DNA of 14,577 bases from a virus. Position 1 is the stretch's first letter. Every line of letters starts with the position of its first letter. Location: UHGV virus genome UHGV-1333726; one strand, written 5' to 3'. A program made the position numbers and the translations under genes. Below the pieces are notes generated by a model. That model worked only from the letters and a program-made list of their open reading frames with translations, was not told the origin of the DNA and did no database searches. This document shows, piece by piece, positions 1,033-11,156 of the stretch.

Positions 1033-1052
1033 AGATTTTCCTCCAACAAAGC

Positions 1053-1074
1053 AAAAACCCGGCGCGGGGCCGGG
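1053..1074 (-). terminator. intrinsic terminator-like hairpin (candidate tR')
   Basis: On the minus strand CCCGGC-cccgc-GCCGGG (6-bp all-GC stem, 5-nt loop) followed by TTTTT, ending 8 nt before the holin Shine-Dalgarno. Confidence 0.55.
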
Positions 1075-1102
1075 TAGTTACAGTTTCGCATTGTTAGGTA
1101 AT

Positions 1103-1131
1103 ATTTTAATCTGTTTGTTTTCGACCCACAA
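1103..1131 (-). promoter_or_regulatory. candidate sigma70-type promoter (pR'-like) upstream of lysis genes
   Basis: Minus strand TTGTGG (1131-1126), 17-nt spacer, TAAAAT (1108-1103); weak -35, good -10 and spacing; lies in the only intergenic gap before the holin. Confidence 0.3.
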
Positions 1132-1139
1132 ATACGGCT

Positions 1140-1310
1140 TTACGCAGTTCTGTATATCAGTCCGTTATCAAGCAATGTTTGCATGTGTTCGCGATCCATA
1201 CCGCTTGATTCCCAATATTTATTGCCCGCGCTTTGTGTTAACACCCTATCACCTTTAACCAAGTAAGCGAAGTTAAATAACTTGTGCAAATAGATACCGT
1301 CTTCAATCAT
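1140..1310 (-). CDS. hypothetical protein (56 aa)
   Basis: ATG 1310 overlaps the TGA of the upstream gene (ATGA); translation MIEDGIYLHKLFNFAYLVKGDRVLTQSAGNKYWESSGMDREHMQTLLDNGLIYRTA; below the ORF-track size cutoff, found by manual translation. Confidence 0.45.
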   Translation of the reverse strand: MIEDGIYLHKLFNFAYLVKGDRVLTQSAGNKYWESSGMDREHMQTLLDNGLIYRTA

Positions 1311-1501
1311 TTCTTGCGCTCCTTAATGGCTCGCTTGATCTGCACTACCGTCGCATCAAAGAAAGCAAGAAAAACCAATACAGGCCAAAAAGGGATCTCA
1401 AATCCGCAACGGTCAGCCTCACTAACCTTAATAAAACATGACATCAAGATCGCGCCAGCGATATAAAGCAAAACAGTCACAGCAATAAGGCATTCAATCA
1501 T
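1307..1501 (-). CDS. small two-TM membrane protein (64 aa)
   Basis: ATG 1501 with GAGGA 6 nt upstream, 4 nt after stop of upstream gene; two hydrophobic segments (IAVTVLLYIAGAILM, FWPVLVFLAFF) and Lys-rich C-terminus; ORF-track start at 1543 overlaps the upstream gene by 50 nt and is less likely. Confidence 0.55.
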   Translation of the reverse strand: MIECLIAVTVLLYIAGAILMSCFIKVSEADRCGFEIPFWPVLVFLAFFDATVVQIKRAIKERKK

Positions 1502-1748
1502 AATCATCCTCATCGTCCTCATGTTCAGCCAGGAACTCATCAACCACTCTGTAAGTCACTGGCGGGATGTATTCGAAATCATCAGAATCAAGATCAAGCG
1601 TCCGGCTGTCGCCGTCATCGTCCAGCGTATTCATCCCTAATTCACCGAAAGGGCCGTACCCAATGTGGCCCAGGTATTCACATCCAATCGTAAAGCCAGG
1701 ATATTCGCCTTTGCACCTGATTTTGTATGGCTTATTTGATGCGCTCAA
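1494..1748 (-). CDS. hypothetical highly acidic protein
   Basis: Frame has no ATG near the upstream stop; TTG 1748 preceded by GGGGGAA is the best start (GTG 1769 alternative); C-terminal half is extremely acidic (DDDGDSRTLDLDSDDFEY...EHEDDEDDYD). Confidence 0.5.
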   Translation of the reverse strand: MSASNKPYKIRCKGEYPGFTIGCEYLGHIGYGPFGELGMNTLDDDGDSRTLDLDSDDFEYIPPVTYRVVDEFLAEHEDDEDDYD

Positions 1749-2055
1749 TTTTAATTCCCCCTGCCACACCTTCAGTCATTTTGTATTCAGCGATCAGTTC
1801 AGCACCAACCAATTCCACTTCATCACCAGGGAATGGATTAAGTTCCAATGATACTAAGATAAAAAATTTAACGTGATCTGCATTATCAAGATCTTTCACG
1901 TCAAAAGGAGGTTCAGCTACATGGAAGCACTTAACGCCATCCTCTTTGTCAGTGGCTACACGGAAACATGCGCCAGGCTGTCCGGCGAATTGTCCATTTT
2001 TTTCATCTTCTGGAAAAGTGCCACGGAAAACTTTAACGCTGATAAATTTAGACAT
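1732..2055 (-). CDS. hypothetical protein (107 aa)
   Basis: ATG 2055 with AAGGAGA upstream, 3 nt after the upstream stop. Confidence 0.6.
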   Translation of the reverse strand: MSKFISVKVFRGTFPEDEKNGQFAGQPGACFRVATDKEDGVKCFHVAEPPFDVKDLDNADHVKFFILVSLELNPFPGDEVELVGAELIAEYKMTEGVAGGIKIERIK

Positions 2056-2058
2056 TTG

Positions 2059-2316
2059 TCATTCTCCTTCGTAAAGAATTGCAACCAGTTCGGCATCTGT
2101 TAGCGTGTTGTGATCTTTATAAGTACCGTAGCGGGCAACGAAAGCTATTTCGCCAGCTATTTTCCGCCACATAGGGATTGACTCATTAAAATAGGTATTC
2201 TCCATTGCCTCCTTGTATGCCAGTTCATAAAAACGACCGCGATTTACATCTTCAATAACGCGGCTGTATGTGCCATCAACGCTACTAACGCCGCGCCACA
2301 GCCTGAACACAACCAT
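2059..2316 (-). CDS. hypothetical protein (85 aa)
   Basis: ATG 2316 with GGAG upstream, 2 nt after the upstream stop. Confidence 0.6.
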   Translation of the reverse strand: MVVFRLWRGVSSVDGTYSRVIEDVNRGRFYELAYKEAMENTYFNESIPMWRKIAGEIAFVARYGTYKDHNTLTDAELVAILYEGE

Positions 2317-2318
2317 AA

Positions 2319-2693
2319 TTAAAACTCCGCACCAGGTAAGCTACGCGCTTTATTTACAACATCTTGTTTTAACAATAATAGTGAGTGATAATGCATGTTA
2401 AACATTCTGCAAAGTGGTGTTTCACTATTTTCTGACTTAATTTTGAATAACTGGTTTGCAGTAAAAATCATGTCGTCGTCTGTTATGTATAACCAGTCGC
2501 CGCGCTTACCAACAACAATATGAGATTTTCCCCAACTATCTTTAAATTCATAATTGCAGAAAACATCACCTTTAGGAACTTCAACAAAACAGCACGCAAT
2601 GAACTTATTGCTTTTCATGATTTTGCCCATCCGCCTTTCTGTGCTCATATATAACAAAACGGCGCTGCCTGAACAATGCCATTTCGTATACAT
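2319..2693 (-). CDS. hypothetical protein, start uncertain
   Basis: Long open frame; first ATG at 2693, other in-frame ATGs at 2648, 2630, 2618; none has a clear Shine-Dalgarno. Confidence 0.45.
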   Translation of the reverse strand: MYTKWHCSGSAVLLYMSTERRMGKIMKSNKFIACCFVEVPKGDVFCNYEFKDSWGKSHIVVGKRGDWLYITDDDMIFTANQLFKIKSENSETPLCRMFNMHYHSLLLLKQDVVNKARSLPGAEF

Positions 2694-2729
2694 TGTGATA
2701 CTAGTCACATTTTGCGCAATTAACTTTTA

Positions 2730-2981
2730 TCAGAAAACCCCTTTATAATCGACCGTGTACTTTGCAACCAATTTCCATTCACAATAGTTTTCCATGTCGC
2801 GCGGTTGCCACCCTTTCATCCCGACAGCACTCCGCGCAGCGTGACGGCGACAATTGTCGTTGAGGTCCACAACACACCACGGCTGAAGGACAAACATGTA
2901 TCGCGCCTCGTTAACCAGGATCGCCATCTGCTTTCCTGTTGCCTTATCTTTTGCCCGGAAATAACTTACCCTGATTTTCAT
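2730..2981 (-). CDS. hypothetical protein, start uncertain
   Basis: ATG 2981 (GAGG upstream) overlaps upstream gene by 38 nt; alternative ATG 2927 with AGGAAAG upstream gives a 65-aa product without overlap. Confidence 0.45.
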   Translation of the reverse strand: MKIRVSYFRAKDKATGKQMAILVNEARYMFVLQPWCVVDLNDNCRRHAARSAVGMKGWQPRDMENYCEWKLVAKYTVDYKGVF

Positions 2982-3192
2982 TTTTAATAACCTCAATCAA
3001 CATTTCTTCTTCCAGGTTGGCAGGACGTTTACGGAATACCCCGGCAAAAGCCAGATCGTCGAGAAGGTCTTTGCTCTTAAATAGCCATTCCTTCATTATT
3101 ACCCCATCGTCACTGCGATATACCACGCCGTTTTTCAGAAAATAAAACGTGCGCGTGTCTGTCTGTAGGTATAGATCTTCGTAAACGTCCAT
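2944..3192 (-). CDS. hypothetical protein (82 aa)
   Basis: ATG 3192, 4 nt after the upstream stop. Confidence 0.5.
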   Translation of the reverse strand: MDVYEDLYLQTDTRTFYFLKNGVVYRSDDGVIMKEWLFKSKDLLDDLAFAGVFRKRPANLEEEMLIEVIKNENQGKLFPGKR

Positions 3193-3196
3193 GATG

Positions 3197-3424
3197 TTAA
3201 CTCTCTACCACTTCCAGCCCGCGCCCCTTGTCGCCAACGAAGTCGCCCAGGCTGAACGTATACGACCATGCCGGATTAATGTAATGGTCATCAGCGCCCG
3301 CGGCAATTAGGTCAGCACCGTTAATCATGCAAGTGACATCATCGCCATGAACGACATTAACCACCTTACCAACAACCTGTTTCAGTGACGGATAACCGTG
3401 ATCGTGCAAGAATTTGACTTTCAC
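3197..3424 (-). CDS. hypothetical protein (75 aa)
   Basis: GTG 3424 overlaps TGA of upstream gene (GTGA); ORF-track start 3439 is TTG. Confidence 0.5.
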   Translation of the reverse strand: MKVKFLHDHGYPSLKQVVGKVVNVVHGDDVTCMINGADLIAAGADDHYINPAWSYTFSLGDFVGDKGRGLEVVES

Positions 3425-3654
3425 TCTTCTGTCCCCCAACGCTCAATGCTGATTAAAAAGTCCCGGATGGCGTGGCGTTCGTCGCGCGTTGGTTTGCGCT
3501 TCCGGTAGATCTTGAAGTCGAACCATTCTTTTTCCTGTTCAAAATCCAAATCGTAAGCAACAGCTTCAATGTATCCGCATTCGTGATACCAGTACGCCAC
3601 GCCAGCACGGACAAAAAAGCGGGTTTTATCCCGCTTGTGTTCATAGATACGCAT
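3421..3654 (-). CDS. hypothetical protein (77 aa)
   Basis: ATG 3654 with GGGGTG upstream, 10 nt after the upstream stop; ORF-track start 3699 would overlap upstream gene by 35 nt. Confidence 0.5.
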   Translation of the reverse strand: MRIYEHKRDKTRFFVRAGVAYWYHECGYIEAVAYDLDFEQEKEWFDFKIYRKRKPTRDERHAIRDFLISIERWGTEE

Positions 3655-3664
3655 ATTCACCCCG

Positions 3665-3895
3665 TTAAGCAGTTGTGTAGCTGTCCACCAGCTTTTCATC
3701 TTTCATTCTGGCAAGCTGTGCGATGCTCATCGTGTAGCCGCCATCAGAGAAAAGCCATTCCGCAGCCTTGCGACGAAAAGCAATATCATCATGGTTACGT
3801 GTCCATGTAGCGATCACAACGCGTTTCCCGTTAGTGGCGAACATAGACAATTCATTATCAACAACGTCAATAGCACACCAGATTTTTAATTCCAT
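3665..3895 (-). CDS. hypothetical protein (76 aa)
   Basis: ATG 3895 with GGTGA upstream, 10-nt overlap with upstream gene. Confidence 0.55.
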   Translation of the reverse strand: MELKIWCAIDVVDNELSMFATNGKRVVIATWTRNHDDIAFRRKAAEWLFSDGGYTMSIAQLARMKDEKLVDSYTTA

Positions 3896-4251
3896 GATTT
3901 ATCACCGTAGATCTTGAATAGTTCGCGTTCTTCCTGATCTTCAAATATCCCTATGTGCAGGTCACGCAGGCGGCGCATTGTGCGGAATCGCGGCCTGAAC
4001 TCCTGGCTACGTTTAATGTATTTGCCGCCAATTGAATAGATATGCCCGTATGAGTACCATCTATTCCCTACCCATATTTCATATTCTTTTCCTTCGTAAT
4101 TAAATTTTATCGTTAGCTCGCCAACCTCAACTATTAACCCTTTGTCGATGATGTCATTAAGCATTTCGTCCCATTCTTTGAGGAATGGTTGTTGATAAAA
4201 ACCAAAAAGCGTATTCACAGCATGGCAGAGGTAATCAATGATTATTTGCAT
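3886..4251 (-). CDS. hypothetical protein (121 aa)
   Basis: ATG 4251, 4 nt after the upstream stop. Confidence 0.6.
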   Translation of the reverse strand: MQIIIDYLCHAVNTLFGFYQQPFLKEWDEMLNDIIDKGLIVEVGELTIKFNYEGKEYEIWVGNRWYSYGHIYSIGGKYIKRSQEFRPRFRTMRRLRDLHIGIFEDQEERELFKIYGDKSWN

Positions 4252-4255
4252 ATTG

Positions 4256-4468
4256 TCACCACATCATATAATAAACGTTCTCGTCAGCTAACATGTCAGC
4301 TACATCCTGCGTCATGTGTCTGGCATTAAGGAAATAGTCATCACTATGCCATTCCCTTACAAGCATGCGCGCCCATTTACGGCGCTGGCGCTTATTGCGT
4401 CGCAGATCATCAAAAGCCTTTAACGCTTTGTCATACGCCCTTACCAGGCGTTTACGGTTACTTTTCAT
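4256..4468 (-). CDS. hypothetical basic protein (70 aa)
   Basis: ATG 4468 with GAGAGGTG upstream (ORF-track start 4474 is GTG); Arg/Lys-rich N-terminal half. Confidence 0.5.
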   Translation of the reverse strand: MKSNRKRLVRAYDKALKAFDDLRRNKRQRRKWARMLVREWHSDDYFLNARHMTQDVADMLADENVYYMMW

Positions 4469-4769
4469 TTTCACCTCTCAACATCCAATTTCTGTCACAT
4501 TTAATTGCGAATACCTTAACAGGATCAGGGCCGAATAATGGATGAGTGATAGTTTTTACTTCGTACCCAAAATAAGGAAGGTTAATAATCCTGTGTTTTT
4601 CGTGGTTGGCAGGGTATCCCCATTTAATAATCAGGCGTTCATATTCCCGCCCTTCCAGACGTTTACGCCAATAGTCATTATAAAGCCGGTATTCCTCCAC
4701 CTTCTTTCCAGTCCATATGGCGTGGAAATATTCCCCTTTCAGATTCAAATGCAGGTGTTTATTTGCCAT
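4458..4769 (-). CDS. ASCH-like (DUF3850-type) domain protein
   Basis: ATG 4769 with AGGA upstream; N-terminus HLHLNLKGEYFHAIWTGKKVEEYRLYND matches the ASCH pattern (P/GxYFxxI..G.K..E.R.ND) as I recall it. Confidence 0.5.
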   Translation of the reverse strand: MANKHLHLNLKGEYFHAIWTGKKVEEYRLYNDYWRKRLEGREYERLIIKWGYPANHEKHRIINLPYFGYEVKTITHPLFGPDPVKVFAIKCDRNWMLRGENEK

Positions 4770-5028
4770 CACTATGATCCTGTAAACAGTCGTTATAGCC
4801 TTCAATGTATCCGGTTAATCCAGTGTTACTAACTGACCAGTCAGCCGAACGGCGCTTGATGGCCTTGTCCATAGTCATTTCGTCGCCTGGTCCGCCTGGC
4901 TCAATGTATTTTCTTAAATCCCTTGCTATCCACGCCCTTAATTGTTGCGTATCACCGCACAACCGAGCGGATAATGTCAGGTCATTAACCAGCTTTGCAA
5001 ATAGATGTTCTTTTAATTTAGGCTTCAT
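4759..5028 (-). CDS. hypothetical protein (89 aa)
   Basis: ATG 5028 with GAGG upstream; ORF-track start 5061 is GTG. Confidence 0.5.
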   Translation of the reverse strand: MKPKLKEHLFAKLVNDLTLSARLCGDTQQLRAWIARDLRKYIEPGGPGDEMTMDKAIKRRSADWSVSNTGLTGYIEGYNDCLQDHSDGK

Positions 5029-5365
5029 TGTCGTCAACCTCGAAATACTGCTTAATAGCACGTTTGACGTTCATTTCACGCTGATAATTGTTATCGCTAT
5101 AGATTGCGGCTGCCGATACGTGATCGATAATTTGCTGTAATAAATCAGGATGAATTTTTATTTTTTCATCAAGGACAATGCGCGATGGCTTAGGTGCGGT
5201 AGCATTATCATTAACGATTTCTATCTCACCACGACCACCGCATCGCGGGCAAACAAACTTATCACCTTGATACAGCATGAATCCGCGACCTTTTTCAGTT
5301 TTTACGACCATGCCATCGTCGTCGCAGTTTTCGCAATACAGCCACCCAATATTAAGTATTTTCAT
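5018..5365 (-). CDS. zinc-ribbon protein (CxxC...CxxCGGRG), start uncertain
   Basis: ATG 5365 preferred (14-nt overlap with upstream gene; ATG 5428 would overlap by 77 nt); contains CENC...CPRCGGRGE pairs. Confidence 0.5.
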   Translation of the reverse strand: MKILNIGWLYCENCDDDGMVVKTEKGRGFMLYQGDKFVCPRCGGRGEIEIVNDNATAPKPSRIVLDEKIKIHPDLLQQIIDHVSAAAIYSDNNYQREMNVKRAIKQYFEVDDNEA

Positions 5366-5558
5366 TGTCTTTATTCCGTCCGTAAATATGTACTGGCTCA
5401 ACCGGTACGGCTGGCAATTCACCATCATTTAACGCGCTTGCCATGCCTAATATTAAACGCGCTTCAGCACCAGTGACTTTCTTACACCATGCACCGCCTG
5501 TTTTATCTTCGAACAAGATAACAGCAAACTGATCGTTTATTTCCAGCTTATCCATCAT
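5352..5558 (-). CDS. hypothetical protein (68 aa)
   Basis: ATG 5558 overlaps the TGA of Q (ATGA); second ATG at 5555. Confidence 0.5.
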   Translation of the reverse strand: MMDKLEINDQFAVILFEDKTGGAWCKKVTGAEARLILGMASALNDGELPAVPVEPVHIYGRNKDNENT

Positions 5559-6049
5559 TCACCCCGTGTTACTCGTTTGATTTCGTTGTCAGCCCGCGCC
5601 TCTTCTTTGAACAATTCAGCAATGGCGTCTTCATAGAAAGCGCGGTATTTCTTCCACCACGTTGATCGGCTTACCGGGAAAACAAGCTGATTAACCGCCC
5701 GCCGTACAAGATCTACAGGGAAACGCGAGTACCCGCGCCCGCCGCAATGCTGGCACGTTTTGAACACTGGCATTTCCGCCGCTTCACTGGCTGCTTTATC
5801 CGGTACTTCGCCACGGCCCTTGCATTGTTTACAATGATTGCGAACTGTCCCATGCCCCTTGCATTTTTTGCAAAGGTGTTTTTCTCCGTATTCGTCAAAC
5901 GTAAATTTATATCCGCCGCACTCCATACAAGTTTTTTCCGTCGCGGCACTCTGGCAATAATCCCGAAATGCGAAAACGGCAACAAGAATAATGAGATCAT
6001 TGCGTTTGGCCTCGTCCAGTTCCATAACGTATTCATAATCTTTTGCCAT
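5555..6049 (-). CDS. Q: late-gene antiterminator Q, zinc-finger (82/QuuD-like) type
   Basis: ATG 6049 with AAGGG upstream (ORF-track start 6073 is TTG); FAFRDYCQSAATEKTC, CQHCGGRGYSRFPVDLVRRAV and C-terminal ...STWWKKYRAFYEDAIAELFKEEARADNEI resemble recalled Q82/QuuD-family motifs; position downstream of ninG/rusA/ninH-like genes fits. Confidence 0.7.
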   Translation of the reverse strand: MAKDYEYVMELDEAKRNDLIILVAVFAFRDYCQSAATEKTCMECGGYKFTFDEYGEKHLCKKCKGHGTVRNHCKQCKGRGEVPDKAASEAAEMPVFKTCQHCGGRGYSRFPVDLVRRAVNQLVFPVSRSTWWKKYRAFYEDAIAELFKEEARADNEIKRVTRGE

Positions 6050-6083
6050 AGCCCTTAAACGCTCTGTAAGCAAAACTACGGCC

Positions 6084-6206
6084 TTATGCTTTTCCTGTTT
6101 TTAAAATAGAAAGATTGGCCATTGTTATCCCTAATTCATCTGCAAGCTCACCAAGAGGTTTTTTGCGCTTGGCCATTATTACATCCAATCTTACAATTAT
6201 AGACAT
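6084..6206 (-). CDS. short NinH-like helix-turn-helix protein (40 aa)
   Basis: ATG 6206 with GGAGG 8 nt upstream; MSIIVRLDVIMAKRKKPLGELADELGITMANLSILKTGKA has an HTH-like core; small HTH gene directly before Q as for lambda ninH; manually found. Confidence 0.35.
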   Translation of the reverse strand: MSIIVRLDVIMAKRKKPLGELADELGITMANLSILKTGKA

Positions 6207-6218
6207 CTGCAGCGCCTC

Positions 6219-6362
6219 CTATATGGTTAACTTTTGTTCCTCCTGAATCTTATATCCAACCTTAAACACTTGTGCTATAAACAGAAGAGATATACCAAAT
6301 ATGCCAAGGATAACATCTACACTTAAGATTGTTTCACACTCAAACCCGTCTATAGCCAACAT
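6219..6362 (-). CDS. possible small hydrophobic peptide (47 aa), next to N run
   Basis: ATG 6362 directly after the N run 6371-6380; MLAIDGFECETILSVDVILGIFGISLLFIAQVF... has one TM-like segment; the longer ORF-track version crosses the N run. Confidence 0.25.
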   Translation of the reverse strand: MLAIDGFECETILSVDVILGIFGISLLFIAQVFKVGYKIQEEQKLTI

Positions 6363-6432
6363 CTCTATCGNNNNNNNNNNGATAAACGCGGTGATTTTGG
6401 GAAGTGGAATTTGAGAATAGATTCCAGATTCA

Positions 6433-6615
6433 TTACTTGCCCCCGTAACGCGCAACAAGTCTTTTGCGATCAGATATTGCTTGCACCAACTTTCTTTCAA
6501 GCTCTTTAAGCGCAAGCAATTCTCGCATGTGGAAAGCCTGTATTTGTCGCACAGTCTCTAAATCATGCTCATCGCGCTGAATATCTATTTGCAGATCTTT
6601 AATTTCGTTTTTCAT
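6433..6615 (-). CDS. hypothetical protein (60 aa), predicted helical
   Basis: ATG 6615 overlaps TGA of upstream gene (ATGA); heptad-like charged sequence. Confidence 0.45.
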   Translation of the reverse strand: MKNEIKDLQIDIQRDEHDLETVRQIQAFHMRELLALKELERKLVQAISDRKRLVARYGGK

Positions 6616-6848
6616 TTCTCTACCACCTTAAACCGAGTTTTAAAATGACCCTGCAAAAAATACTCATTTTTTGATGGGAAATACTGGACTAATCGCCATG
6701 CGTCGGCGTCGTCGAAATCCGATACAAGATCGTCTTGTAGAATGAAAGCAAAGCACCCATGCTTTATAAAACCTGAATATTTTTTACCTTCAGTGAAAAA
6801 ATCGACGCTTGATTGAGTACATTTAACAACAATGTTTATTAACTCCAT
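6612..6848 (-). CDS. hypothetical protein (78 aa)
   Basis: ATG 6848 with GGGG upstream; 26-nt overlap with rusA end. Confidence 0.5.
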   Translation of the reverse strand: MELINIVVKCTQSSVDFFTEGKKYSGFIKHGCFAFILQDDLVSDFDDADAWRLVQYFPSKNEYFLQGHFKTRFKVVEK

Positions 6849-7251
6849 TGTCGCCCCACATATCAGTTAAGTATTCATTAATATCCGGCAACATGTCGTT
6901 GCGTTCTCGCACCTTGATAAATAAGAGTCCGCCTTTTACCTTCCGGCAACGAACAAACTTCATTGCGTCAACCTGGCTGTCATCGGCCCAAAAGCCGGAA
7001 TAGGTTATAGCGTCAAATAACGCTTTCCCTATATTATCTATATCGCGTCTCCTGTTGTCTGGCGGCGCAATATAAACCGTTATTGATAACCTGCATTTTA
7101 GATTTATATCAAGATTAAAACGCCTTATGACTTCCCTCACCCATTCTCTGTATTTTTTCCCCTCCTTGCTTATATAGTTAACCCCTCTGGCGTGGCGGTA
7201 ATACCTGTTACATGATGGCGGGTAAGGCAGGATAAAAGAATATTCATTCAT
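6823..7251 (-). CDS. rusA: Holliday-junction resolvase RusA
   Basis: ATG 7251 overlaps ninG TGA (ATGA); ILPYPPSCNRYYRH...PDNRRRDIDNIGKALFDAITYSGFWADDSQV matches the RusA family signature (PWPPSNNRYY...RRDLDN...FWLDD). Confidence 0.9.
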   Translation of the reverse strand: MNEYSFILPYPPSCNRYYRHARGVNYISKEGKKYREWVREVIRRFNLDINLKCRLSITVYIAPPDNRRRDIDNIGKALFDAITYSGFWADDSQVDAMKFVRCRKVKGGLLFIKVRERNDMLPDINEYLTDMWGDNGVNKHCC

Positions 7252-7853
7252 GCCGCCTTTCTCCTTAAGGCGTCTAATTTCGCCTGATAAACTTTAATGA
7301 TCTCCTTACATTCTTCGATCGTCCATTTGTGAGTTTCGTTATTATTTTCTAATGCCTCCACCCTTTCTAATCCTATTTTTTTTATTAAATTTATTCTGTA
7401 TAACTCAACATTGCCGTCTAATACCTGATTGCAATGTCGGCATTGTAGGTTTACGTTATCCTCGTTAAATCGAAGGTGTCCGGCTGCCGCTACTGTGCGC
7501 CAGTGTCCAGCATCAGCGCCGCATTGTTCGTAATAATAAGTCCCGCAAGATATACACGGCTGACCCGCGTCACGCTCGCGTATATAAGCGTTAAAAACGT
7601 TTTGTGCCTGTTTAATCCAGTAGCTACGCGGATTTAACTGTTTCCGTTTCCGGTTGCGTTCTTCCCGCTGGCTATCACGGCGTTTCTTCCGCTCCATAGC
7701 CTTCATAGCCTTTTCACGATCGCGGCATAGCTGATCAAACTTCAGTTCTTCCAGACATTCATCGCTGCACCACGTTTGATTGTGATATTTAGGCTCAAAA
7801 AAAACGCCGCAGCATTTGCAACGGCGTCTTATAGGTTTTTTAGGGTTCTGCAT
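7248..7853 (-). CDS. ninG: NinG/Rap recombination protein
   Basis: ATG 7853 (ORF-track start 7943 is an upstream extension); RRRCKCC...YHNQTWCS...PRSYWIKQAQNVFNAYIRERD...PCISCG...HKWTIEECK closely parallels lambda NinG. Confidence 0.85.
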   Translation of the reverse strand: MQNPKKPIRRRCKCCGVFFEPKYHNQTWCSDECLEELKFDQLCRDREKAMKAMERKKRRDSQREERNRKRKQLNPRSYWIKQAQNVFNAYIRERDAGQPCISCGTYYYEQCGADAGHWRTVAAAGHLRFNEDNVNLQCRHCNQVLDGNVELYRINLIKKIGLERVEALENNNETHKWTIEECKEIIKVYQAKLDALRRKAA

Positions 7854-10940: not shown

Positions 10941-11114
10941 CTAAACGTCCTCAATCACACCGCCTTTCACGCGCTCTTTAATATCCCATACGTGAGGCTT
11001 GCATATTTCCTGATAATAGTGATCCGGCCTGCTGCCGAAATACCATTTGCCATCCATATAAAAATAAACGCCAGAAAAATTTCCTGGCGCTGCCTTTGTT
11101 GTCATGATATACAT
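10941..11114 (-). CDS. hypothetical protein, 5' end uncertain (abuts N run)
   Basis: Manually found frame ending TAG 10941; first ATG 11114 but frame stays open upstream into the N run 11129-11138. Confidence 0.3.
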   Translation of the reverse strand: MYIMTTKAAPGNFSGVYFYMDGKWYFGSRPDHYYQEICKPHVWDIKERVKGGVIEDV

Positions 11115-11156
11115 AGGTGCAGCCCCGANNNNNNNNNNTTCCAGTCTTTATAGTGT

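What the first reader, a model, noticed from the sequence alone, without database searches (positions are those of the whole stretch)
5555..6073. Q-like antiterminator with four DnaJ-type CxxCxGxG zinc-finger repeats and translational coupling to the downstream gene
CMECGGYKF, CKKCKGHGT, CKQCKGRGE and CQHCGGRGY are read directly; from memory, Q82/QuuD-type proteins carry two such motifs. The N-terminal region before the FAFRDY motif is short (about 30 aa). The stop codon overlaps the next ATG, so there is no intergenic space for a Q-utilisation site directly downstream.
Basis: partly seen in the sequence, partly recalled or inferred. Interest (0 to 1): 0.45.

Follow-up and report, generated by a model that had tools for sequence, protein, structure and literature searches.

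The report
Broken lambda-type Q antiterminator gene
The ORF is the last 172 codons of an ordinary 240-residue lambda-family Q antiterminator of an mEp021-like coliphage; its "short N-terminus" exists only because this record has an N-gap and 276 nt of Bacteroidales DNA in the gene, and four zinc motifs are normal for the family.

Summary
The ORF, the cysteine motifs and the ATGA stop/start overlap are real, on the minus strand. The interpretation needs three corrections.

1. The protein belongs to the Q-lambda family (PF03589; PDB 7UBM E 3e-39; model vs 7UBN_Q TM 0.77), not to Q82 or Q21/QuuD.

2. Four zinc knuckles are the family norm: 29 of 51 full-length 50%-identity cluster representatives and 96 of 115 closer hits have them. 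Lambda's two are the minority.

3. The short N-terminus comes from a broken gene. The true ATG is at 6433 and 17 codons follow. Then come a 10-N run (6371-6380) and 276 nt that are 94% identical to a Bacteroidales gut MAG. Q resumes at 6094. Eight of eight natural contigs carrying the identical downstream gene have an intact 240-242-aa Q. One of them is 100% identical to the window on both sides of the break. The second N-run shows the same layout of N-gap, foreign gut DNA and microhomology. An assembly chimera is therefore the likeliest cause.

The window belongs to the published mEpimmI (mEp021) coliphage group. The only non-coding stretch between Q and the lysis genes (1033-1139) has an invariant TAAAAT, then 7 nt, then AACAAT, followed by a terminator. 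It resembles lambda PR' with its pause element. This is a known kind of protein and of low interest.

The parts
5555..6094 (-). 3' part of the Q-lambda-family antiterminator gene (codons ~62-240 plus the TGA stop). The listed ORF 5555..6073 is the part of it downstream of the nearest in-frame TTG.
   Evidence: The stretch is collinear with mEp021, MagusPhagus and mEp554 Q up to 6094. It is 100% identical to natural contig L013. It hits PF03589 and phrog_127.
6381..6433 (-). 5' end of the same Q gene: ATG at 6433 and codons 1-17 (MNLESILKFHFPKSPRL), overlapping the stop of the upstream 60-aa gene as TAATG.
   Evidence: Homology to the relatives' Q starts again exactly at 6381.
6371..6380 (.). 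Run of 10 N (scaffold gap or mask) at one edge of the foreign segment.
6095..6370 (-). Foreign DNA that replaces 130 nt of Q (about codons 18-61). It holds the 3' end of a DUF2975 membrane-protein gene (stop at 6219), an RBS, and the first 38-40 codons of an HTH_26 (Cro/C1-type) regulator gene (ATG 6206).
   Evidence: The segment is 94% identical over 292 nt to Bacteroidales MAG CAKUYQ010000003.1 (L005 1490-1780), where both genes are intact at 262 and 74 aa. It has no match in 50,697 phage records or 5,426 complete E. coli genomes.
6077..6097 (-). Junction between foreign and phage DNA, lying in about 18 nt of imperfect microhomology (Bacteroidales GGAAAGGCAAAGGCTGTA, phage GAAAAGCATAAGGCCGTA).
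   Evidence: The blast alignment to L005 runs to 6077, while phage homology starts at 6094.
5906..5929 (-). Zinc knuckle 1, CMECGGYK (CxxCxGxK). It is absent from lambda Q.
5849..5872 (-). Zinc knuckle 2, CKKCKGHG. It is absent from lambda Q.
5810..5833 (-). Zinc knuckle 3, CKQCKGRG, aligned with lambda Q C118/C121.
   Evidence: The cysteines are invariant in 115 sequences.
5732..5755 (-). Zinc knuckle 4, CQHCGGRG, aligned with lambda Q C144/C147.
5555..5558 (-). ATGA overlap between the Q stop and the start of the 68-aa downstream gene (5352..5558).
   Evidence: The overlap is conserved in 8 of 8 natural contigs.
1033..1139 (-). The only sizeable non-coding stretch between Q and the lysis cassette, and the candidate Q-dependent late regulatory element. 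Its parts are: a weak -35 TTGTGG (1131-1126), a -10-like TAAAAT (1108-1103), a 7-nt spacer, the sigma-pause-like AACAAT (1095-1090), an intrinsic terminator (stem 1075-1057 plus T-tract), then the RBS and holin ATG at 1032.
   Evidence: In a holin-anchored set of 44 viral contigs (28 unique), GATTAAAATA and CTAACAATGCGAAA are invariant. Lambda PR' has TAAATT, 6 nt, then AACGAT. The terminator corresponds to mEp021 TERM_5/t5, reported as experimentally demonstrated. Function as a Q site is inferred, not shown.

Best explanation
The ORF is the 3' 72% of the late-gene antiterminator Q of an mEpimmI-group (mEp021-like) temperate coliphage. It is an ordinary member of the Q-lambda family.

What the intact protein looks like. 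The natural protein is 240 aa. It has an N-terminal segment homologous to lambda Q 1-60, which in lambda refolds with NusA into the nozzle at the RNA-exit channel. It also has a helical body with an HTH, and a zinc-ribbon arm. Compared with lambda Q it carries about 34 extra residues at the base of the arm. These add two more CxxCxGxG knuckles, an architecture shared by most of the family.

How it most likely works. By homology it should act like lambda Q. It would bind a Q-binding element at a late promoter and load onto sigma70-RNAP paused at a -10-like element. It would then make the polymerase read through the terminator in front of the lysis and structural genes.

Where it most likely acts. 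The gene sits inside a tightly overlapping operon, so the site of action is not next to the gene. The best candidate is the conserved element 4.4 kb downstream at 1033-1139, just before the holin gene.

Why the N-terminus looks short. In this record 130 nt of the gene are replaced by a 10-N gap plus 276 nt of Bacteroidales DNA. This is most likely a chimeric contig tip joined by scaffolding, so the truncated 172-aa protein is not a biological entity.
For: Family assignment:
- PF03589 at 72.9 bits and phrog_127.
- phmmer of the intact mEp021 homologue against PDB finds lambda Q 7UBM at E 3e-39. It aligns over residues 1-113 and 148-238.
- The AF2 model of the 97%-identical intact relative has pLDDT 86. 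Foldseek places 7UBN_Q first at E 1.6e-15, TMt 0.77.

The break:
- Homology to three relatives stops at 6094 and resumes at 6381, with 130 nt missing.
- L013 is 100% identical on both sides of the break and has the intact gene. L007, L008 and L010 are 99.8-99.96% identical and are also intact.
- The insert is 94% identical to a Bacteroidales MAG.
- The truncated proteins are absent from a 15-billion-protein collection.
- The junction sequence is absent from viral and metagenome contigs.
- The second N-run has the same layout, with a 36-mer found in 62 unrelated gut contigs.

Four knuckles are normal:
- 29 of 51 representatives at 50% clustering have four, and 96 of 115 at 90% clustering do.

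Candidate late element.

Mechanism of lambda Q, and the defect of its deletion of residues 1-38: PMC9388147.
Against: - No reads or coverage data are available, so the chimera is inferred from comparison, not shown.
- The nature of the N-runs (scaffold gap or mask) is unknown.
- The function of the extra two knuckles is unknown.
- The -35 region of the candidate late promoter is weak and exists in two alleles.
- No experiment links this Q to the 1033-1139 element.
Confidence: 0.85

Rival explanations
1. The interruption is real. A phage or prophage variant had Q destroyed by illegitimate, microhomology-mediated recombination that inserted Bacteroidales DNA. It would be a Q pseudogene in a phage defective for late gene expression.
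For: The foreign-to-phage junction at ~6077-6097 is continuous sequence and lies in microhomology. By analogy with lambda Q lacking residues 1-38, loss of residues 1-68 would abolish antitermination (PMC9388147).
Against: - The donor is from a different phylum from the E. coli host.
- Both foreign genes are truncated fragments.
- The other edge of the insert is an N-gap.
- A second N-gap 4.7 kb away has the same gap, foreign DNA and microhomology layout, with DNA from yet another context.
- 8 of 8 natural contigs are intact, including one 100% identical.
- The junction and the truncated protein are found nowhere else.
Confidence: 0.08
2. One reading: a naturally short-N-terminus Q82/QuuD-type antiterminator that has newly acquired two extra zinc-finger repeats.
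For: The 172-aa ORF taken in isolation does begin about 30 aa before FAFRDY and has four motifs.
Against: - There is no hit to the Q82 (PF06323) or Q21 (PF06530) families.
- The remaining codons of the gene lie upstream of the gap.
- Relatives are 240-246 aa.
- Four knuckles are the majority state in the Q-lambda family.
Confidence: 0.02
3. The protein is not an antiterminator but a DnaJ-like zinc-finger protein, such as a chaperone or redox protein.
For: There are weak hits to PF00684 (27.6 bits) and to TIGR02349 DnaJ.
Against: - The PF00684 score is below the gathering cut-off of 32.7, and lambda Q itself gives a similar sub-threshold hit of 23.1 bits.
- There is no J domain.
- The model matches lambda Q over its whole length in sequence and fold.
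Confidence: 0.01

Closest known systems
Bacteriophage lambda Q (Q-lambda family, PF03589; PDB 4MO1, 7UBJ-7UBN)
   Same: - It is homologous over the whole length: N-terminal nozzle-forming segment, HTH body, zinc-ribbon arm and C-terminal helix. About 40% identity to the intact relative.
- The four Zn ligands of lambda (C118, C121, C144, C147) align with knuckles 3 and 4.
- The candidate target has the same order of parts as PR': -10, a -10-like pause element 6-7 nt later, then a terminator.
   Different: - About 34 extra residues with two further CxxCxGxG knuckles are inserted where lambda has P114-G115-A116, at the base of the arm.
- The gene is not followed by its promoter. It overlaps the next gene, and about 4.4 kb of small ORFs separate it from the candidate site.
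- The candidate terminator lies only about 20-45 nt after the presumed transcription start, against about 190 nt in lambda.
mEp021 gp37 'putative late gene regulator Q' and the Q proteins of mEp554, mEp010 and MagusPhagus (mEpimmI phage group, PMC11893012)
   Same: It is the same gene in the same position. The overlapping part is 93-97% identical at the protein level, and the gene order NinG-RusA-(small ORFs)-Q-small ORFs-holin is the same.
   Different: Those genes are intact at 240-242 aa. The window copy lacks about codons 18-61 and carries foreign DNA in their place.
Four-knuckle Q-lambda-family proteins of Klebsiella, Serratia, Citrobacter, Salmonella, Pantoea and Pectobacterium prophages (254-283 aa; PF27659 + PF03589 with PF00684 hits; related to TIGR02642)
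   Same: They have the same four-knuckle architecture, with invariant spacing of 13 residues between knuckles 2 and 3 and 25-26 residues between knuckles 3 and 4.
   Different: Their spacer between knuckles 1 and 2 is mostly 30-63 residues. In the mEpimmI type it is 19-21, near the short end of the range (minimum 14).
DnaJ central cysteine-rich domain (PF00684)
   Same: It has four CxxCxGxG motifs in a row.
   Different: - The score is below Pfam's cut-off, and there is no J domain or C-terminal substrate-binding domains.
- Since lambda Q binds its Zn with the equivalents of knuckles 3 and 4, the pairing here is probably sequential (1+2, 3+4). DnaJ's pairing is interleaved (1+4, 2+3). This is inference and was not verified.

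Membership tests
Q-lambda family of antiterminators (PF03589) | Sequence match to the family profile above the curated threshold | tested here: met
   PF03589 scores 72.9 bits for the window ORF and 104.3 bits for intact L013 Q, against a cut-off of 26.7. phmmer to lambda Q 7UBM gives E 3e-39.
Q-lambda family of antiterminators (PF03589) | Fold: four-helix body with HTH plus a zinc-ribbon arm | tested here: met
   The AF2 model of intact relative P0001 has pLDDT 86.3. Foldseek against 7UBN_Q gives E 1.6e-15 and TMt 0.77 over 237 columns.
Q-lambda family of antiterminators (PF03589) | Four Zn-ligand cysteines equivalent to lambda C118, C121, C144 and C147 | tested here: met
   C149, C152, C175 and C178 (P0001 numbering) are invariant in 115 aligned sequences.
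Q-lambda family of antiterminators (PF03589) | N-terminal segment that forms the nozzle (lambda residues 1-44) and is needed for antitermination | tested here: not met
   It is absent from the 172-aa ORF. In the window only codons 1-17 survive, upstream of the gap. It is present and aligned to lambda 1-113 in the intact natural allele. The failure therefore belongs to this record, not to the phage's gene.
Q-lambda family of antiterminators (PF03589) | Q gene directly followed by PR', a sigma-dependent pause element, a terminator and the late genes | tested here: inconclusive
   Adjacency is not met, because of the ATGA overlap with the next gene and about 4.4 kb of ORFs. A conserved -10 / AACAAT / terminator element does precede the holin gene at 1033-1139.
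Q-lambda family of antiterminators (PF03589) | Antitermination activity dependent on a QBE and NusA | not testable with these tools
   This needs a reporter or an in vitro transcription assay.
Q82 family (PF06323) and Q21 family (PF06530) | Sequence match to the family profile | tested here: not met
   Neither family is listed at E<=1 in the Pfam scan. The mapping of Pfam accessions to Q families is from PMC9388147.
DnaJ central domain (PF00684) | Profile score above the gathering threshold, in the context of a J-domain protein | tested here: not met
   The score is 27.6 bits against a cut-off of 32.7. Only 52 of the profile's 65 positions are matched, and there is no J domain.
mEpimmI phage group (mEp021-like coliphages) | Collinear nucleotide similarity to mEp021, mEp554 and their relatives | tested here: met
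   73-87% of the window is covered at 86-89% identity by six mEp phages and MagusPhagus. The annotated gene order is the same.

The most novel reading that the evidence does not exclude
The extra zinc ribbon (knuckles 1 and 2) is present in most Q-lambda-family proteins but missing from the only member studied structurally. It may be a functional module. It is inserted next to the lambda Q residues that contact the RNAP beta' zinc-binding domain. There it could change how Q loads: a different QBE geometry, different sigma region 4 or NusA dependence, or the ability to act at a promoter whose terminator lies only about 20-45 nt from the start, as in the 1033-1139 element. A much less likely reading is that the Bacteroidales insertion in Q is a genuine cross-phylum recombination event.
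Probability: 0.25. Interest if true: 0.35.

Novelty: already known. Interest (0 to 1): 0.1.

Why it matters
Mainly as a caution. An apparently unusual short-N-terminus, four-finger Q is an intact, already annotated gene family seen through a damaged record.

There are two small useful by-products:
- Lambda Q, the structural model for its family, is the atypical two-knuckle minority form. The role of the second zinc ribbon carried by most relatives is unstudied.
- In mEpimmI phages the Q gene and its probable site of action are about 4.4 kb apart. The conserved 1033-1139 element gives a concrete target for testing late-gene control in this common gut coliphage group.

Tried and rejected
- Looked for the foreign 313-nt stretch in phage records and in complete E. 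coli genomes. Only the 35 nt belonging to Q matched; E. coli genomes gave no match.
- Searched for the junction 41-mer and 37-mer in viral and metagenome contigs. Nothing was found, so there is no independent occurrence.
- Looked up the exact 172-aa and 164-aa truncated proteins and the 40-aa HTH fragment in the 15-billion-protein collection. All were absent.
- First thought the roughly 28 nt beside the second N-run might be natural phage variation. Rejected: the 36-mer occurs in 62 gut contigs whose flanks are unrelated to the phage.
- Considered Q82/QuuD membership. Rejected for lack of any profile hit.
- Considered a DnaJ-like protein. Rejected because the score is below threshold and the protein is homologous to lambda Q over its whole length.
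- The generic promoter scan did not list the TTGTGG-17-TAAAAT candidate, which has only 8 of 12 matches. The proposal rests on conservation and on analogy with lambda PR', not on the scan.

Full report
**Observation**

All genes in the window are on the minus strand. The ORF 5555..6073 (172 aa, TTG start) reads MLTERLRAMAKDYEYV...FAFRDYCQSAATEKTCMECGGYKFTFDEYGEKHLCKKCKGHGTVRNHCKQCKGRGEV...CQHCGGRGYSR.... Three motifs are perfect CxxCxGxG. The first, CMECGGYK, has K in place of the last G. The stop overlaps the next start as ATGA at 5558-5555. So the sequence-level observation holds, apart from the meaning of the short N-terminus.

**Family**

- The ORF hits Pfam PF03589 'Antitermination protein Q' at 72.9 bits (cut-off 26.7).
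- It hits PHROG 127, but only over profile positions 70-252 of 253. About 70 N-terminal residues are therefore missing.
- No hit to PF06323 or PF06530 appears at E<=1. According to PMC9388147, PF03589 is the Q-lambda family, PF06530 the Q21 family and PF06323 the Q82 family.
- The intact homologue from phage mEp021 matches lambda Q structures (7UBM/7UBN) at E 3e-39. It aligns over residues 1-113 and 148-238. The difference from lambda is thus a ~34-residue insertion holding knuckles 1 and 2. Knuckles 3 and 4 align with lambda's Zn ligands C118/C121 and C144/C147.
- An AlphaFold2 model of the 97%-identical intact relative P0001, built on a 115-sequence alignment, has pLDDT 86.3. Foldseek puts 7UBN_Q first, at E 1.6e-15 and TMt 0.77.
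- The PF00684 (DnaJ) hit is below threshold at 27.6 against 32.7 bits. Lambda Q gives a similar sub-threshold hit.

**Origin of the window**

- Six mEp phages (mEp021, 010, 013, 044, 515, 554) and MagusPhagus cover 73-87% of the window at 86-89% identity.
- These are the mEpimmI group of Nus-dependent 'non-lambdoid' coliphages. They have been described with an N-like protein (Gp17), three nut sites and 'Q-lambda-like' proteins (PMC11893012).
- In the relatives where Q was located (mEp021, MagusPhagus, mEp554) it is 240-242 aa.

**The gene is broken in this record**

- The minus-strand sequence shows the true start at 6433, ATG AAT CTG GAA ... = MNLESILKFHFPKSPRL. This is identical to the relatives' N-terminus.
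- A run of 10 N follows at 6371-6380.
- Then come 276 nt with no phage homology (6095-6370).
- Q resumes at 6094 with GAAAAGCATAAGGCCGTAG = EKHKAVV. Together these replace 130 nt of Q, about codons 18-61.
- The foreign stretch encodes the C-terminus of a DUF2975 protein and the first ~40 residues of an HTH_26 regulator.
- A 30-mer from the stretch hits a Bacteroidales MAG from a human gut sample. The window is 94% identical to that MAG over 292 nt, and there both genes are complete at 262 and 74 aa.
- The stretch is absent from 50,697 phage records and 5,426 complete E. coli genomes.

**Artefact or biology?**

- Eight places carry the identical 68-aa downstream protein. They come from E. coli genomes, JGI, ENA and Logan assemblies. 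All have an intact 240-242-aa Q with the same 4-nt overlap.
- L013 is 100% identical to window 2352-6094 and 6381-7411, and has the 130 nt of Q in between. L007, L008 and L010 are 99.8-99.96% identical with the same break points.
- The 172-aa and 164-aa truncated products are not among 15 billion proteins.
- The junction sequence is in neither viral nor metagenome contigs.
- The junction lies in about 18 nt of imperfect microhomology.
- The second N-run (11129-11138) has the same layout. The 10 N are followed by 28 nt that do not match the phage relatives, and these join the phage at an 8-nt microhomology, AACAAAGG. The 36-mer spanning the join occurs in 62 human-gut metagenome contigs whose flanks are unrelated to the phage.

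Two independent sites share the pattern phage, gap, gut-bacterial DNA, microhomology, phage. This points to chimeric contig tips joined by a scaffolder, for instance from template-switch chimeras in a gut metagenome or virome. That cause is inferred; I could not see reads.

If the interruption were real, the phage would lack the region that in lambda Q forms the RNA-exit-channel nozzle. In lambda, deleting residues 1-38 abolishes antitermination but not DNA binding (PMC9388147).

**Are four motifs unusual?**

No.

- An exhaustive HMMER search of 1.84 billion 50%-identity representatives finds only 175 clusters at E<=0.001.
- I counted CxxC, plus the CxCxGxG variant of knuckle 3, in the 51 full-length (195-300 aa) representatives among the 150 best-scoring clusters that the search listed. 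29 have four knuckles, 10 have two (lambda among them) and 5 have three.
- Among 115 full-length hits to a family profile at 90% clustering, 96 have four and 19 have two. This second set is biased by a query profile rich in four-knuckle sequences.
- Spacing between knuckles 2 and 3 is always 13 residues. Between 3 and 4 it is 25-26 in nearly all (range 23-27). Between 1 and 2 it varies from 14 to 63. The mEpimmI type has 19-21.
- The four-knuckle proteins come from many Enterobacterales genera. They already carry the precomputed domain string PF27659 + PF03589 + PF00684.

I cannot say strictly that four is 'ancestral', because I built no rooted tree.

**Mechanism**

Shown for lambda Q (PMC9388147):
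- The body HTH and the arm bind a 13-bp QBE.
- The arm tip contacts repositioned sigma region 4.
- The zinc ribbon contacts the beta' zinc-binding domain.
- With NusA, residues 1-44 fold into a torus that narrows the RNA-exit channel and blocks terminator hairpins.

Inferred here by homology: the intact mEp-type Q does the same. Its extra ribbon sits at the arm base, beside the residues that in lambda touch the beta' zinc-binding domain.

Pairing of the knuckles is probably 1+2 and 3+4, because lambda binds Zn with 3+4 alone. A DnaJ-like 1+4 / 2+3 arrangement is not excluded, and the invariant 13-residue spacing between knuckles 2 and 3 keeps it open.

**Where Q acts**

- Genes from Q to the lysis cassette overlap or abut. 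The only real intergenic stretch is 1033-1139.
- It contains a strong intrinsic terminator (ACCCGGCCCCGCGCCGGGTTTTTGC). This corresponds to mEp021 TERM_5/t5, which has been reported as experimentally demonstrated.
- Upstream of the terminator lies TTGTGG-17 nt-TAAAAT-7 nt-AACAAT. Lambda PR' has TTGACT-17-TAAATT-6-AACGAT, where AACGAT is the sigma-dependent pause element.
- In a holin-anchored, hence unbiased, set of 44 viral contigs (28 unique upstream sequences), GATTAAAATA and CTAACAATGCGAAA are invariant. The terminator stem, T-tract and RBS are also conserved. By contrast the upstream gene is mosaic and the -35 region has two alleles.
- I read this element as the PR'-like late promoter with its Q-loading site. 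That is an inference from conservation and analogy, not a demonstrated function.
- The ATGA overlap is typical of this whole operon and says nothing special about Q.

**Verdict**

This is a known protein family in a known phage group. The feature that looked odd, the short N-terminus, comes from an interrupted record. The other feature, four zinc motifs, is the family norm. Interest is low.

Noticed in passing
window 11101-11138: The second 10-N run (11129-11138) is flanked by 28 nt (minus strand TCGGGGCTGCACCTATGTATATCATGAC) that do not belong to the phage. With the adjoining 8-nt AACAAAGG they form a 36-mer found in 62 human-gut metagenome contigs of unrelated context. The piece replaces about 14 nt and removes the natural start of a 67-aa gene (PF23939/DUF7274 in relatives). 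The layout is the same as at the Q break.
   Followed up: yes
window 1033-1139 (minus strand): A conserved non-coding element lies just upstream of the holin gene. It has an invariant TAAAAT, then 7 nt, then an invariant TAACAATGCGAAA, then an intrinsic terminator (mEp021 t5). It resembles lambda PR' with its sigma-dependent pause element and terminator, but the terminator is only about 20-45 nt from the presumed start. The -35 region occurs in two alleles across 44 viral contigs.
   Followed up: partly
window ~5018-5365 (minus strand): The second gene downstream of Q is called as 115 aa in natural contigs. It also carries a CxxC (CENC) and a CxxCxGxG (CPRCGGRG) motif, with a weak, sub-threshold PF00684 hit (E 7.7e-4). 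It is a small zinc-ribbon protein of unknown function, conserved in the group.
   Followed up: no
window 1140-5558 (minus strand): About 17 small overlapping ORFs of unknown function lie between Q and the lysis cassette. Their content is mosaic among mEpimmI relatives: blocks match different relatives at 78-94% identity and some blocks are absent. It is an accessory-gene region sitting where lambda has only PR', the 6S RNA and tR'.
   Followed up: partly
Q-lambda family (proteins P0125-P0272, not in the window): In four-knuckle family members the knuckle 2-3 spacing is invariant at 13 residues and the knuckle 3-4 spacing is 25-26 in nearly all (range 23-27). The knuckle 1-2 spacer varies from 14 to 63 residues. 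In many members knuckle 3 is CxCxGxG rather than CxxCxGxG.
   Followed up: partly
window 3617-3636 (minus strand): A terminator-like hairpin (AAGCGGGATAAAACCCGCTT followed by TTTTTG) lies inside the ORF 3421..3699. I did not check whether it corresponds to the terminators annotated in this region of mEp554.
   Followed up: no
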